Assembly: GCA_014143165.1 (NCBI GenBank)
Contig: GCA_014143165.1_4843.1
Reading direction: 5' to 3' (one strand)
Origin: a phage
DNA: 45,838 nucleotides
Position numbers and translations under genes: made by a program. Below the pieces are notes generated by a model. The model saw nothing but the letters and a program-made list of their open reading frames with translations, ran no database searches and was not told where the DNA came from. Every line of letters begins with the position of its first letter. The first letter of the stretch is position 1. Shown here in pieces: positions 12,489 to 14,268 of the stretch.

Positions 12489-13298
12489 ATGAAAACACTC
12501 AGCAAAATATATTCAGACAAAGAAACGCGCAACGGCATCGCTGTTAACAAAACCTATCTCGTGCCAGTTGAGCAAATCTATCTGGAACCGGGCTACAACA
12601 TCCGTGAAGCAGATGAGCAGCATGTGGAATATTTCGCGCAGTGCTGGGAATCAGGTCAGCCACTGCCAGCATTAACAGTTATTCCTGACGAGAAGGGAAT
12701 CCGCATTCTTAATGGTCAGCATCGCTATCTCGGCGAATTGCGTGCCATTGAGCGTGGCGCGCCAATCGTTCGCATTGAGTGTAATGATTTTACAGGAGAC
12801 GAAGCAGATAAAATCGCCTTCATGGTGTCATCCAGTCAGGGTAAGCAGCTCGACCCGTTTGAGCGCGCAAAGGCTTACACGAGACTGAAAGGTTTTGGCT
12901 GGACGAATGAAGAAATCGCCAAAAAGGTAGGCCGCTCAGTATCTGATGTGCAAATGCATCTGTCACTGGGTGATGTTCCAGCGGAAGTGAAAGCGCGCAT
13001 CAGTGCAGGACAAATCAGCTATGCAAATGCCGTAGCGGTAACGCGCGAGCATGGTGATGATGCGGCTAAAGTTATCGACGAGGCAGTCGAAGAGGCCAAA
13101 GCACAAGGCAAAGACAAGGTCACAGCGAAAGTACTGAAGGCGAAAAAGATTAAGCCAGTAGACCGCCTGATTGAGTTATTGAAGCCAGCCGACCATGTGA
13201 TTCTCCCCGCTGGTCATGTGGTGGCAGAGGATGAGGAATTTATCCAGATTCCTGTCGCAGACATTCACGAGGTTATGGCAATTCTGGAGAAGATGTGA
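12489..13298 (+). CDS. ParB-like N-terminal-domain (ParB/Srx fold) DNA-binding protein
   Basis: N-terminal ...VPVEQIYLEPGYNIRE... and ...LNGQHRYLGELRA (ParB GERRxRA-box-like), followed by HTH-like WTNEEIAKKVGRSVSDVQMHLSL. Confidence 0.65.
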   Translation: MKTLSKIYSDKETRNGIAVNKTYLVPVEQIYLEPGYNIREADEQHVEYFAQCWESGQPLPALTVIPDEKGIRILNGQHRYLGELRAIERGAPIVRIECNDFTGDEADKIAFMVSSSQGKQLDPFERAKAYTRLKGFGWTNEEIAKKVGRSVSDVQMHLSLGDVPAEVKARISAGQISYANAVAVTREHGDDAAKVIDEAVEEAKAQGKDKVTAKVLKAKKIKPVDRLIELLKPADHVILPAGHVVAEDEEFIQIPVADIHEVMAILEKM

Positions 13299-14095
13299 TG
13301 ATAGTCCACTACTACAATGAGTGGGACAAGGGCGCAGCGGCATGGCTGCGCGAATTAATTAACAATAAACTAATTCCTTACGGATATGTCGATGAGCGAT
13401 CAATTACCGAAGTCACCCCTTCAGACCTGGAAGGATTTACACAATGTCACTTCTTTGCCGGAATCGGAGGGTGGCCCCTTGCACTCCAGCTGGCAGGAAT
13501 ACCAGAGAGCACTCGACTCTGGACAGGATCACCACCTTGCCAGCCGTTTAGCGTTGCCGGTCAGTCTCGCGGATTTGATGACGAACGACACCTTGCCCCT
13601 GTATTTCTCCGGCTCATCAGAGAGTGCAAACCTGAATTGCTATTTGGAGAGCAGGTTGCGGCAGCAATTGCAAAGCACTGGCTCGACTTTGTATTCCTTA
13701 ACCTGGAAGAAAAAGGCTACACCTGCGGGGCGGCAGTATTGCCAGCTTGCAGCGTCGGCTCTCCACAGGAAAGGAAAAGAACCATCTTTGGCGCGAGGAT
13801 GGGCGACACCAACAGCGCGAGGATGGAAGGATTATGGGAATCTCAGCAAGTCATTTTACAGAAAGGACGGAAAATTCAGGAACGATACTCTTTATCGCCA
13901 GATGTGGCTTCATGTTTATGGGATTCATGGAAACCCAAACATGGAGCAGATAAAGAAACTAGAGTCATACCAGGCGGATTTTGCGAGGCAACTCATGGGG
14001 TATCCGCAAGAGTGGGACGACTGCGCGGTTATGGCAATGCCATAGTTCCACAAGTCGCAGCAGAATTCATTAAAGCATTCATGAGGTCCGTTTAA
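13295..14095 (+). CDS. compact DNA (cytosine-5)-methyltransferase
   Basis: Motif I FFAGIGGW, motif IV GSPPCQPFSVAGQ, motif VI LLFGEQV, motif VIII GSPQERKRTIFGA, motif X GYGNAIVPQVAAEFIKAF. A second open frame (13386..14045) carries a motif-IX-like FARQLMGYPQEW (see findings). Confidence 0.7.
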   Translation: MMIVHYYNEWDKGAAAWLRELINNKLIPYGYVDERSITEVTPSDLEGFTQCHFFAGIGGWPLALQLAGIPESTRLWTGSPPCQPFSVAGQSRGFDDERHLAPVFLRLIRECKPELLFGEQVAAAIAKHWLDFVFLNLEEKGYTCGAAVLPACSVGSPQERKRTIFGARMGDTNSARMEGLWESQQVILQKGRKIQERYSLSPDVASCLWDSWKPKHGADKETRVIPGGFCEATHGVSARVGRLRGYGNAIVPQVAAEFIKAFMRSV

Positions 14096-14268
14096 TGACA
14101 CCAGAACAATTCATCGAAAAACAACTACGCGCCAAACTGCCGGACATCGACCAGATGGCAATTGATGCGGCAATTCAGTATTACAAGCGCAATCAGAGCG
14201 AAAAGAAGGGTGGCATTTTTGAAGAGTGCCTGAAGGTTGCAAAACAACACATGATTAAGGTGAAGTGA
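14095..14268 (+). CDS. hypothetical small protein (57 aa)
   Basis: ATG overlaps the MTase stop (TAATG); ends TGATG overlapping the next start. Confidence 0.3.
   Translation: MTPEQFIEKQLRAKLPDIDQMAIDAAIQYYKRNQSEKKGGIFEECLKVAKQHMIKVK

What the first reader, a model, noticed from the sequence alone, without database searches (positions are those of the whole stretch)
13295..14095. C5-methyltransferase gene with catalytic motifs in two overlapping reading frames
The annotated frame carries motifs I, IV, VI, VIII and X. A second frame (13386..14045) is open for 219 codons, which is unlikely by chance, and encodes FARQLMGYPQEW (13980-14015), a close match to motif IX, just upstream of the motif X codons in the other frame. 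Possible explanations are compensating frameshifts (an inactivated or sequencing-affected gene), programmed frameshifting, or an overprinted second gene.
Basis: seen in the sequence. Interest (0 to 1): 0.55.

Follow-up and report, generated by a model that had tools for sequence, protein, structure and literature searches.

The report
Second gene nested inside methyltransferase gene
This phage cytosine-methyltransferase gene carries a second conserved protein-coding gene in its +1 reading frame, a layout found across this whole, very large enzyme family, and the hidden protein probably supplies the DNA-recognition half of a two-chain enzyme.

Summary
Frame 0 (13295/13298..14095) and frame +1 (13386..14045) are both open, and FARQLMGYPQEW lies at 13980-14015.

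It is not a mutation, a sequencing error or a frameshift site. In 165 of 169 homologous genes, from enterobacterial, Xanthomonas, Vibrio, Rhodobacter and cyanobacterial phages and prophages of many phyla, the +1 frame is stop-free over more than 70% of the gene (median 88%). The +2 frame has a median of 22%.

Codon-position analysis shows interleaved selection:
- Frame 0 alone is constrained over motifs I-IV and X.
- Both frames are constrained over motifs VI-VIII and again just before motif X.
- Frame +1 alone is constrained in the variable region, which holds the W-P-T-P repeats.

An internal GGAG plus ATG is often embedded in frame 0 codons. The +1 protein is PHROG phrog_1008. It is absent from Pfam and NCBIfam and has 29,876 cluster representatives.

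The best reading is a two-polypeptide C5 methyltransferase built like M.EcoHK31I, whose beta chain is nested in another frame of the alpha gene and carries motif IX. Here the nested protein also carries the recognition-like region. That frame +1 is coding is well supported. Its role as a subunit is inferred. I rate it a new variant of a known kind, with interest 0.7.

The parts
13295..14095 (+). Frame-0 gene (alpha-like chain): C5 DNA methyltransferase large-domain polypeptide, 266 aa from GTG 13295 or 265 aa from ATG 13298.
   Evidence: ORF seen. PF00145 E=8.5e-22. phrog_363 E=1.5e-73. Relatives are annotated from the ATG equivalent to 13298, and P0121 is 265 aa at 99% identity.
13386..14045 (+). 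Nested +1-frame gene (beta-like chain), 219 aa, lying entirely inside the frame-0 gene.
   Evidence: ORF seen. phrog_1008 E=4e-20. 211 homologs found by word search and 29,876 cluster representatives by HMM. Conserved in 165 of 169 orthologous genes.
13386..13394 (+). Candidate start codons of the nested gene: ATG 13386 and ATG 13392, with only a weak GGA 8-10 nt upstream of the second.
   Evidence: Across the family, the first +1 ATG clusters at reference codons 29-43. It is preceded by GGAG, GAGG or AGGA in 46% of genes against a 10% background. GGAG within the R35-S36 codons co-occurs with the +1 ATG at codon 39 (53/86 versus 4/79, Fisher p=2e-15). The window's lineage lacks that strong site.
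13451..13471 (+). Frame-0 motif I (FFAGIGG, AdoMet binding).
13532..13552 (+). Frame-0 motif IV (PPCQPFS, catalytic Cys).
   Evidence: aligned to M.HhaI PCQAFS.
13613..13795 (+). Doubly constrained block 1 (frame-0 codons 107-167). Frame 0 encodes motifs VI (FGEQV, 13643-13657) and VIII (QERKR, 13766-13780). Frame +1 encodes SSESANLNCYLESRLRQQLQSTGSTLYSLTWKKKATPAGRQYCQLAASA.
   Evidence: Many frame-0 third positions have entropy below 0.8 bit, and the +1 residues L, S, R, L, G, S, W, K, T, P are 83-100% conserved. The +1 frame is stop-free here in 165 of 165 genes, against 22% expected. In the AlphaFold model of the +1 protein, the best-predicted part is helix 78-97 plus hairpin 103-125, pLDDT 71-86.
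13796..13918 (+). Region constrained in frame +1 only (frame-0 codons 168-208). It holds the W-A-T-P-T-A-R unit at 13800-13820 and the KDG.R.D.L segment. In frame 0 it is a variable, unconstrained but always open linker.
   Evidence: W, T and P are 82-94% conserved, with their own third codon positions near saturation at 1.6-1.7 bit, while the frame-0 residues are 48-67% conserved. Length across the family ranges from 23 to 185 codons, and only 1 gene has a +1 stop here. Against relatives with the same recognition region, window +1 identity is 52-66% and frame-0 identity is 32-48%.
13919..13969 (+). Frame-0 conserved segment W..W...GAD..R (codons 209-225).
   Evidence: D219, G220, K221 and R223 are conserved although their third positions vary, and R223 uses both CGN and AGR codons. 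This shows selection on the frame-0 protein.
13970..14023 (+). Doubly constrained block 2 (codons 226-243). Frame +1 encodes the motif-IX-like FARQLMGYPQEW (13980-14015). Frame 0 encodes GGFCEATHGVSARVGRL.
   Evidence: The +1 residues L, M, G, P and W are 94-98% conserved with free third positions. Frame-0 R239, L243 and R244 are conserved through different codon families. hhalign against Dcm aligns motif IX in register.
14033..14059 (+). Frame-0 motif X (GNAIVPQVA). From here on, only frame 0 is constrained. The +1 frame ends at TAG 14043-14045.
   Evidence: aligned to Dcm GNSVVVPVF, P=0.003.

Best explanation
The methyltransferase gene holds two genuine protein-coding genes on the same strand.

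Frame 0 makes the catalytic large-domain polypeptide. It carries motifs I, IV, VI, VIII and X, and a freely evolving linker sits where a C5 methyltransferase normally has its target-recognition domain.

Frame +1 starts from an internal ATG (13386 or 13392 in this window). It makes a second protein with four parts:
- a disordered, unconstrained N-terminus
- a conserved helix-hairpin module (..SRLR..GS.LY.LTWK..TP.GR..)
- one or more W-P-T-P-x-A-x-D units
- a motif-IX-like C-terminus (L.P...R.LMG.P.EW)

The most likely mechanism follows M.EcoHK31I, where the beta chain is nested in another frame of the alpha gene, carries motif IX and is needed for activity. On this model the nested protein binds the frame-0 protein and supplies the small domain (recognition region plus motif IX). 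The active enzyme would then be a heterodimer encoded by one stretch of DNA.

Shown here:
- Both frames are kept open.
- Both frames are under protein-level purifying selection, in an interleaved pattern, across a very large family.
- Many members carry an embedded Shine-Dalgarno sequence plus ATG.

Inferred, not shown:
- The nested protein is translated in this particular phage.
- The two chains associate.
- The nested chain determines or stabilises sequence recognition.
For: - Family-wide openness. The +1 frame is stop-free over more than 70% of the gene in 165 of 169 orthologs. No ortholog reaches that in the +2 frame.
- Synonymous shuffles. The +1 frame is stop-free in the N-terminal region in 157 of 165 genes against 45% expected. 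In the middle region it is stop-free in 165 of 165 against 22% expected. For the window, 0 of 20,000 shuffles were stop-free.
- Codon-position entropies show where each frame is constrained. Conserved +1 residues W, T, P, L, G and P have saturated third positions of their own. Conserved frame-0 residues R223, R239 and L243 use several codon families.
- In the region from motif VIII to motif X, the +1 translation is more conserved than frame 0 (52-66% versus 32-48%). In the N-terminal region the reverse holds.
- Internal translation signal. An SD-like sequence lies upstream of the first +1 ATG in 46% of genes against 10% background. GGAG in the R35-S36 codons is linked to the ATG at codon 39, with p=2e-15.
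- The +1 family is large and is independently called as genes. It is PHROG phrog_1008.
- AlphaFold predicts a disordered residue 1-77 followed by structured elements.
- hhalign puts the +1 motif in register with Dcm motif IX, while frame 0 alone aligns only at motif X.
- TIGR00675 and PF00145 match only the N-terminal half of frame 0.
- Precedent: M.EcoHK31I has beta entirely within alpha in another frame, beta carries motif IX, both are required, and the beta N-terminus is dispensable with internal Met starts functional (PMC2836561; PMC3404938).
Against: - There is no expression or activity data for either product.
- This window's lineage has only a weak ribosome-binding sequence before the +1 ATGs.
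- The AlphaFold model of the nested protein has low global confidence (pLDDT 59.7, pTM 0.27) and no structural neighbour.
- The frame-0 model failed, so no structural docking argument is possible.
- The motif-IX assignment is not statistically significant.
- Frame 0 also has a conserved, motif-IX-like R.VEPG..PLA.G.P.RVGRL segment, so frame 0 might be a complete short methyltransferase on its own.
- In M.EcoHK31I the recognition domain is said to lie in alpha, unlike here.
Confidence: 0.6

Rival explanations
1. The nested +1 protein is real and conserved but is not a methyltransferase subunit. It might regulate the enzyme, bind DNA on its own, or counter host defence. Frame 0 alone would then be a complete short-recognition-domain methyltransferase.
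For: - Frame 0 has its own conserved W..DW.C.DGK.RPVEPG..PLA.G.P.RVGRLRGYGNAIVP C-terminus under frame-0 selection.
- The +1 profile has no hit in PDB, Pfam or NCBIfam.
- Some family members are fused in frame to unrelated domains: Dam, and DUF2800/PD-(D/E)XK.
Against: - Strict co-inheritance by overlap across all phyla suggests a tight functional tie.
- The +1 C-terminus aligns in register with canonical motif IX.
- The frame-0 stretch where a recognition domain should sit is unconstrained.
- The EcoHK31I precedent points the other way.
Confidence: 0.25
2. A single-chain enzyme is made by two ribosomal frameshifts: +1 after motif VIII into the recognition/motif IX frame, then -1 back into frame 0 before motif X.
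For: The constrained segments, read in order frame 0, then +1, then frame 0, give the canonical order I-VIII, recognition region, IX, X. The hybrid C-terminus aligns to Dcm motifs IX and X together.
Against: - Frame 0 is kept open through the 23-185-codon variable region, and the +1 frame is kept open about 80 codons upstream of motif VI. Neither is needed under frameshifting.
- Frame-0 residues 209-225 and +1 residues overlapping motifs VI-VIII are each under their own protein-level selection.
- Internal SD plus ATG signals exist.
- I saw no slippery sequence by eye at 13780-13800 or 14015-14033. No systematic scan for a conserved slippery site was run.
- None of the ten longest of the top 150 +1-family representatives scanned against Pfam carries PF00145 in frame.
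Confidence: 0.05
3. The gene is a pseudogene with compensating frameshift mutations, or the sequence has assembly errors.
For: One metagenomic protein (P0033) is a frame-0 to +1 fusion caused by a single-base difference. This shows that such errors or mutations do occur.
Against: The layout is identical in independent genomes of 13 close relatives at 94-96% identity, and in 165 of 169 distant orthologs. Both frames show purifying selection.
Confidence: 0.01
4. The +1 frame is a non-coding shadow ORF that stays open because of composition or frame-0 amino-acid usage.
For: In the N-terminal third, the +1 translation is poorly conserved and largely mirrors frame-0 motifs.
Against: - Synonymous shuffles that keep the frame-0 protein give many stops.
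- The +2 frame and other genes are not open.
- The layout holds from GC 0.47 to 0.71.
- +1 residues are conserved while their own wobble positions vary and the frame-0 residues change.
Confidence: 0.01

Closest known systems
M.EcoHK31I (E. coli HK31, YGGCCR), a two-polypeptide C5 methyltransferase (Lee, Kam and Shaw 1995, as described in PMC2836561 and PMC3404938)
   Same: [quoted passage not shown] The beta N-terminus is dispensable and several internal Met codons can start it. This matches the unconstrained, disordered N-terminus and the variable start position seen here.
   Different: In EcoHK31I the recognition domain is reported to lie in alpha and beta contributes only motif IX. Here the alpha segment in that position is unconstrained. 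The nested chain carries a conserved helix-hairpin module overlapping motifs VI-VIII, plus W-P-T-P repeat units, plus the motif-IX-like end. This family consists mostly of phage and prophage orphan enzymes. Sequence homology to EcoHK31I could not be tested because no sequence was accessible.
M.AquI alpha/beta (Agmenellum quadruplicatum), cited in PMC3404938
   Same: It is a natural C5 methyltransferase made of two chains that split the enzyme within the variable region.
   Different: The AquI chains are consecutive: alpha has I-VIII, beta has the rest of the variable region plus IX and X. Here motif X stays in the frame-0 chain, and the second chain is nested rather than following.
Phage lambda Rz/Rz1 spanin genes
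   Same: A gene is embedded in the +1 frame of another phage gene, and its product works in a complex with the product of the surrounding gene.
   Different: Rz1 is short (about 60 codons) and covers a minority of Rz. Here the nested frame covers about 85% of the host gene, with 60-plus codons under double constraint. The function is unrelated.
PHROG families phrog_363 (frame 0) and phrog_1008 / phrog_31772 (frame +1)
   Same: The window's two products match them (E=1.5e-73 and 4e-20). Both are labelled 'DNA methyltransferase'.
   Different: PHROGs treats them as separate protein families and does not record that they are two frames of the same DNA. Pfam and NCBIfam have no model for the +1 family.

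Membership tests
C5 DNA methyltransferase (PF00145) - frame-0 product | Pfam gathering score reached | tested here: met
   78.4 bits against a cut-off of 22, E=8.5e-22. Only residues 73-174 match, to profile positions 62-167 of 324.
C5 DNA methyltransferase (PF00145) - frame-0 product | Motifs I (FxGxGG), IV (PCQ, catalytic Cys), VI (ENV-type Glu) and VIII (QxRxR) | tested here: met
   FFAGIGG, PPCQPFS, FGEQV and QERKR are present. Motifs IV-VIII align to M.HhaI with E=1.5e-17, and motif I aligns separately. All are invariant across the family.
C5 DNA methyltransferase (PF00145) - frame-0 product | Motif X (GN.V.P) in the same chain | tested here: met
   GNAIVPQVA aligns to Dcm GNSVVVPVF, hhalign P=0.003. 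G, N and A are 99% conserved.
C5 DNA methyltransferase (PF00145) - frame-0 product | Recognition domain and canonical motif IX in the same chain, between VIII and X | tested here: inconclusive
   The frame-0 profile aligns to Dcm only at motif X. The region between VIII and W209 is unconstrained in frame 0. A conserved R.VEPG..PLA.G.P segment exists in frame 0. TIGR00675 scores 61.7, below its cut-off of 100.65, and covers the N-terminal half only.
EcoHK31I-type two-polypeptide C5 methyltransferase | Second ORF lies entirely within the first, on the same strand, in a different frame | tested here: met
   13386..14045 lies within 13295..14095, in the +1 frame. This is conserved in 165 of 169 orthologs.
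EcoHK31I-type two-polypeptide C5 methyltransferase | Outer chain has motifs I-VIII and X | tested here: met
EcoHK31I-type two-polypeptide C5 methyltransferase | Nested chain carries motif IX | tested here: inconclusive
   The family consensus L-N-P-x-x-S-R-W-L-M-G-x-P-x-E-W aligns in register with Dcm L-T-P-R-E-C-A-R-L-M-G-F, but at hhalign P=0.015 and probability 3%. PDB and Pfam profile searches find nothing.
EcoHK31I-type two-polypeptide C5 methyltransferase | Recognition domain in the outer (alpha) chain | tested here: not met
   The segment between VIII and X is constrained in the +1 frame, not in frame 0.
EcoHK31I-type two-polypeptide C5 methyltransferase | Both polypeptides are made and both are required for methylation | not testable with these tools
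   This needs expression and methylation assays. The indirect support is an embedded SD plus ATG in many members.
EcoHK31I-type two-polypeptide C5 methyltransferase | Sequence homology to M.EcoHK31I alpha and beta | not testable with these tools
   The original paper (PMC306636) and the sequences are not held. No supplement was available.
M.AquI-type split methyltransferase | Second chain follows the first and carries motifs IX and X | tested here: not met
   Motif X is in frame 0, downstream of the +1 stop.
Programmed ribosomal frameshift gene | A conserved shift site, with the alternative frame needed only downstream of it | tested here: not met
   The +1 frame is kept open from about codon 26, in 157 of 165 genes over codons 41-106 against 45% expected. 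It has its own start signals. I saw no slippery heptamer by eye at the frame boundaries; no systematic scan was run.
PHROG phrog_1008 (+1 product) | Significant match to the family profile | tested here: met
   E=4e-20 for the window. E=4e-35 and 5e-45 for P0054 and P0051.

The most novel reading that the evidence does not exclude
This may be one of the most widespread long same-strand overlapping gene pairs in bacteria and their viruses, with tens of thousands of sequence clusters across many phyla. On this reading the nested protein is the modular specificity subunit of a heterodimeric C5 methyltransferase. Its W-P-T-P repeat units could be gained, lost or swapped to change the target sequence. 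The same DNA in frame 0 is only a length-tolerant linker, so specificity could evolve without damaging the catalytic chain.
Probability: 0.4. Interest if true: 0.85.

Novelty: new variant of a known kind. Interest (0 to 1): 0.7.

Why it matters
- Standard annotation misses a conserved protein. PGAP, Pfam and NCBIfam record only the frame-0 enzyme, even in textbook phages such as N15 and epsilon15. Some records annotate the wrong frame as the methyltransferase.
- If the enzyme needs both chains, then cloning, expressing or predicting the specificity of these very common phage and prophage 'orphan' cytosine methyltransferases from the frame-0 protein alone will fail or mislead.
- The pair is a large natural data set for studying how two proteins evolve on one stretch of DNA. 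It has over 160 diverse genes here and about 30,000 clusters in public data, with clear zones of single and double constraint.
- It extends a curiosity known from a single enzyme, M.EcoHK31I, to a whole family, and it suggests a natural scaffold for split, targetable methyltransferases.

Tried and rejected
- AlphaFold of the frame-0 protein, using 75 close homologs, failed (pLDDT 35.7). It says nothing about whether frame 0 folds as a complete enzyme.
- AlphaFold of the nested protein gave only local confidence. Foldseek against PDB found nothing meaningful.
- Profile searches of PDB found no match at E up to 10. This covered the +1 family (A2), the hybrid C-terminus (A5) and the frame-0 C-terminus (A6).
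- A Pfam scan of a hand-made frame 0 / +1 / frame 0 hybrid did not extend the PF00145 match.
- I recalled similar 'L-P-T-P-x-A-x-D ... L-N-P-x-F-x-x-W-L-M-G' sequences in single-frame actinophage methylases. tblastn of two +1 peptides against 50,697 phage records returned only proteobacterial and cyanobacterial phages. Every hit I checked was in the +1 frame of the annotated gene, or was the annotated nested frame itself. The recollection is therefore unconfirmed and is not used.
- A look-up of P0040 contigs found nothing on record.
- Lee et al. 1995 and the supplement of PMC2836561 are not held, so homology to M.EcoHK31I stays untested.
- Four literature searches for a description of this nested gene in phage methyltransferases found none. 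A text search of PMC8788219 for methyltransferase terms also found none. 'Mte8-like protein' is only a GenBank label.
- Compensating frameshifts, sequencing error, a chance shadow ORF and double ribosomal frameshifting were all considered and rejected, as set out under the rival explanations.
Full report
**1. The observation**

The window is almost a whole genome of an IME207/HC6/Sf11-like siphophage of enterobacteria, 90-92% identical over 25 kb. At 13295..14095, the ORF listing finds a 266-aa ORF. It starts at GTG 13295, or at ATG 13298 as annotated in relatives. One base further along, a 219-aa ORF runs 13386..14045.

Frame 0 carries these motifs:
- FFAGIGG at 13451-13471
- PPCQPFS at 13532-13552
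- FGEQV at 13643-13657
- QERKR at 13766-13780
- GNAIVPQVA at 14033-14059

Frame 0 matches PF00145 with E=8.5e-22, but only over residues 73-174. It aligns to M.HhaI over motifs IV-VIII. Frame +1 reads FARQLMGYPQEW at exactly 13980-14015. Every factual element of the finding is correct.

The double openness is not chance:
- Shuffling synonymous codons while keeping the frame-0 protein gives a mean of 7.8 stops in the +1 frame over codons 31-250. No shuffle out of 20,000 was stop-free.
- Of the 21 stop-free stretches of at least 200 codons in the window, only this locus has an alternative frame open over most of its length. All others are at 41% or less.
- E. coli dcm has at most 88 open +1 codons out of 473.

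**2. It is a property of the family, not of this genome**

Close relatives (Bas71-80, HC6, ST1UNAM and others, 94-96% identical) have the same two ORFs. A tblastn search with the +1 peptide 13797-14042 found matches at 55-62% identity in Klebsiella phage SBP, Xanthomonas phage XAP3 and Salmonella phage SAP012. It found weaker matches in Kagunavirus, Rhodobacter, Vibrio and cyanobacterial phages.

In each record I inspected, the match lies in the +1 frame relative to the annotated methyltransferase CDS. There are two exceptions in annotation only. Phage K1G has both overlapping ORFs annotated, as 'C-specific methylase' and 'Mte8-like protein'. Cyanophage Cr-LKS3 has only the nested frame annotated, as 'methyltransferase'. 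The classical phages N15 (gp58) and epsilon15 also carry an unannotated nested ORF, of 242 and 338 codons.

I fetched 160 further loci: 80 bacterial genomes (Proteobacteria, Acidobacteriota, Verrucomicrobiota, Nitrospira, Bacteroidota and others) and 80 IMG/VR contigs.
- Of 169 complete genes, the +1 frame is stop-free over more than 70% of the gene in 165, with a median of 88%.
- The +2 frame has a median of 22% and never exceeds 70%.
- GC content ranges from 0.47 to 0.71.

This rules out compensating frameshifts, sequencing error and compositional shadow ORFs.

**3. Which frame is selected where**

I built a codon alignment of 165 distinct genes (summarised) and a second alignment guided by the +1 translation. 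They show interleaved constraint.

| Frame-0 codons | Constrained frame | Evidence |
|---|---|---|
| 5-106 (motifs I-IV) | Frame 0 only | Third positions are near saturation (mean 1.56 bit). The +1 translation is poorly conserved. |
| 107-167 (motifs VI-VIII) | Both | Many frame-0 third positions fall below 0.8 bit. The +1 translation reads ..SS.SA.LQ.SL.SRL..RL...GST.Y.LTWK...TP.GR..C.L.ASA.RTS, with residues 83-100% conserved. Several columns are more conserved in +1 than in frame 0. |
| 168 to about 208 | Frame +1 only | Length varies from 23 to 185 codons. W-P-T-P-x-A-x-D units occur in one to several copies. W, T and P are 82-94% conserved while their own third codon positions are at 1.6-1.8 bit, the classical coding signature. 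The frame-0 residues are only 48-67% conserved. |
| 209-225 | Frame 0 | D219, G220, K221 and R223 are conserved with free wobble. R223 uses both CGN and AGR codons. |
| 226-243 | Both, +1 more strongly | The +1 consensus L-N-P-x-x-S-R-W-L-M-G-x-P-x-E-W has L, M, G, P and W at 94-98% with free third positions. Frame-0 R239, L243 and R244 are kept through different codon families. |
| 244 onward (motif X) | Frame 0 only | |

For the window itself, I compared it with relatives that share its short recognition-region type. The segment from motif VIII to motif X is 52-66% identical in +1 and 32-48% in frame 0. The N-terminal segment is 60-80% identical in frame 0 and 26-44% in +1. Against Bas80, the few differences in this segment are conservative in +1 (N/D, S/T, K/R) and radical in frame 0 (W/R, V/D, E/G).

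**4. Both frames are read through**

Frame 0 stays open through the variable region although its sequence there is free. The +1 frame stays open through codons 41-106 although its sequence there is free: 157 of 165 genes are stop-free against 45% expected from synonymous shuffles. In the middle block the figure is 165 of 165 against 22%. Neither would be needed if ribosomes merely switched frames at fixed sites.

The last upstream +1 stop lies at reference codons 18-45 in most genes, and the first +1 ATG lies at codons 29-43. That ATG is preceded by GGAG, GAGG or AGGA in 46% of genes, against 10% for arbitrary positions.

The invariant frame-0 dipeptide R35-S36 is often encoded AGG-AGY or CGG-AGY, which creates GGAG about 9 nt upstream of an ATG formed by GAT-G at codons 39-40. 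GGAG is present in 53 of 86 genes with that ATG and in 4 of 79 without it (Fisher p=2e-15, not corrected for phylogeny). AGG accounts for 24% of codons at R35 (40 of 165) but 10% of Arg codons elsewhere.

Gene callers start the nested protein at the same profile positions in most of the best 150 representatives. The window's lineage uses ATG 13386 or 13392, with only a weak GGA upstream. Translation in this particular phage is therefore inferred.

**5. What the nested protein is**

It has no Pfam or NCBIfam family. It is PHROG phrog_1008. It is very common: 211 hits by word-indexed search, and 29,876 cluster representatives at E up to 0.001 in the 1.84-billion-protein library, of which 8,591 are at E up to 1e-30. 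PGAP annotates only frame 0 in the 39 E. coli genomes that carry a homolog.

AlphaFold on a 94-sequence alignment gave these results:
- Residues 1-77 are disordered. This fits the unconstrained N-terminus.
- A helix (78-97) and a beta-hairpin (103-125) have pLDDT 71-86.
- The C-terminal helices have pLDDT around 70.
- The global score is poor (pTM 0.27).

That pattern is what one expects of a chain that folds against a partner, but it proves nothing. Foldseek found no neighbour.

The C-terminal motif resembles canonical motif IX. hhalign of a family profile (+1 motif followed by frame-0 motif X) against the C-terminus of E. coli Dcm aligns LNP..SRWLMG.P with LTPRECARLMGF and GNAIVP with GNSVVV in one alignment of 38 columns (P=0.015). 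The pure frame-0 profile aligns only at motif X, over 19 columns (P=0.003). This is suggestive, not significant.

**6. Mechanism and comparison with known systems**

The constrained pieces, read as frame 0, then +1, then frame 0, reproduce the canonical order: I-VIII, recognition region, IX, X. The extra double-constrained blocks and the full-length openness of both frames argue for two separate polypeptides rather than one frameshifted chain.

There is an exact precedent for the layout. [quoted passage not shown] Alpha has motifs I-VIII and X, beta has motif IX, and both are required. The first 42 or so residues of beta are dispensable, and internal Met codons can initiate it (PMC2836561; PMC3404938). 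M.AquI is another natural two-chain C5 enzyme, with consecutive chains.

I therefore propose that frame 0 is the large catalytic domain plus hinge. The nested protein would be the small domain, comprising the recognition region and motif IX, and would bind frame 0 in trans.

There are differences from EcoHK31I as described:
- The recognition-like region here lies in the nested chain, not in alpha.
- The nested chain has an extra conserved module overlapping motifs VI-VIII.
- This family consists mainly of phage and prophage orphan enzymes.

I could not test whether EcoHK31I belongs to the same sequence family, because neither the paper nor the sequence is held. The main rival is that frame 0 is a complete short enzyme and the nested protein does something else. 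Frame 0's own conserved R.VEPG..PLA.G.P.RVGRL segment keeps this alive.

**7. Novelty**

Four literature searches and one text search within a paper found no description of this nested gene in phage methyltransferases. The principle is known from one enzyme. The family-wide extent, the pattern of interleaved constraint and the placement of the recognition-like repeats in the nested frame appear not to be described in the literature I could search. I rate it a new variant of a known kind.

**8. Confidence**

| Claim | Confidence |
|---|---|
| The +1 frame is a real, selected coding frame | About 0.9 |
| It is the beta-like recognition/motif IX subunit of a heterodimeric methyltransferase | About 0.55-0.6 |
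| Double ribosomal frameshifting | About 0.05 |
| Pseudogene, sequencing error or chance | About 0.01 each |

Noticed in passing
window 13310-13348 versus 13451-13471: The frame-0 N-terminus YYNEWDKGAAAWL aligns to the motif-II region of M.HhaI (residues 36-47). TIGR00675 aligns frame-0 residue 6 to profile position 25. Yet this segment lies upstream of motif I (FFAGIGG). The order therefore looks like II-I-IV, a possible local permutation of the AdoMet-binding half.
   Followed up: no
P0241 and P0304 (representatives of the nested-protein family): Two family members continue in frame into other domains. P0241 (497 aa) ends in a phage Dam N6-adenine methyltransferase domain (PF05869). P0304 (758 aa) ends in DUF2800/PD-(D/E)XK nuclease. 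These could be read-through into the next gene or real fusions.
   Followed up: partly
P0033 (289 aa, 11-kb metagenome contig), equivalent to window ~13600-13612: A called protein joins frame-0 residues 1-103 to the +1 frame at LAPAF|SGSSES. This is consistent with loss of one base in TTTCTCC. It is either a natural frameshift mutant or an assembly error.
   Followed up: partly
window 13290-13300 and 14090-14100: The genes are chained by overlapping stop and start codons. The ParB-like gene (12489..13298) ends in TGA inside GTGATGA at the methyltransferase start. The methyltransferase stop TAA (14093-14095) overlaps the ATG of the next ORF (14095..14268). This suggests translational coupling along the operon.
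   Followed up: no
L003 (Klebsiella phage ZX4) 2506-2952 and L005 (Klebsiella phage SBP) 1846-2322: In some relatives a homing-type nuclease gene sits directly downstream of, and overlaps the end of, the methyltransferase gene: endonuclease VII in ZX4 and HNH in SBP. The window's gene order lacks it.
   Followed up: no
L014 (cyanophage Cr-LKS3) 1015-1752; L007 (K1G) 1002-1826 and 1090-1782: Public annotation is inconsistent. Cr-LKS3 annotates only the nested frame as 'methyltransferase'. K1-type phages annotate both frames. Most phages, and PGAP in 39 E. coli genomes, annotate only frame 0.
   Followed up: yes
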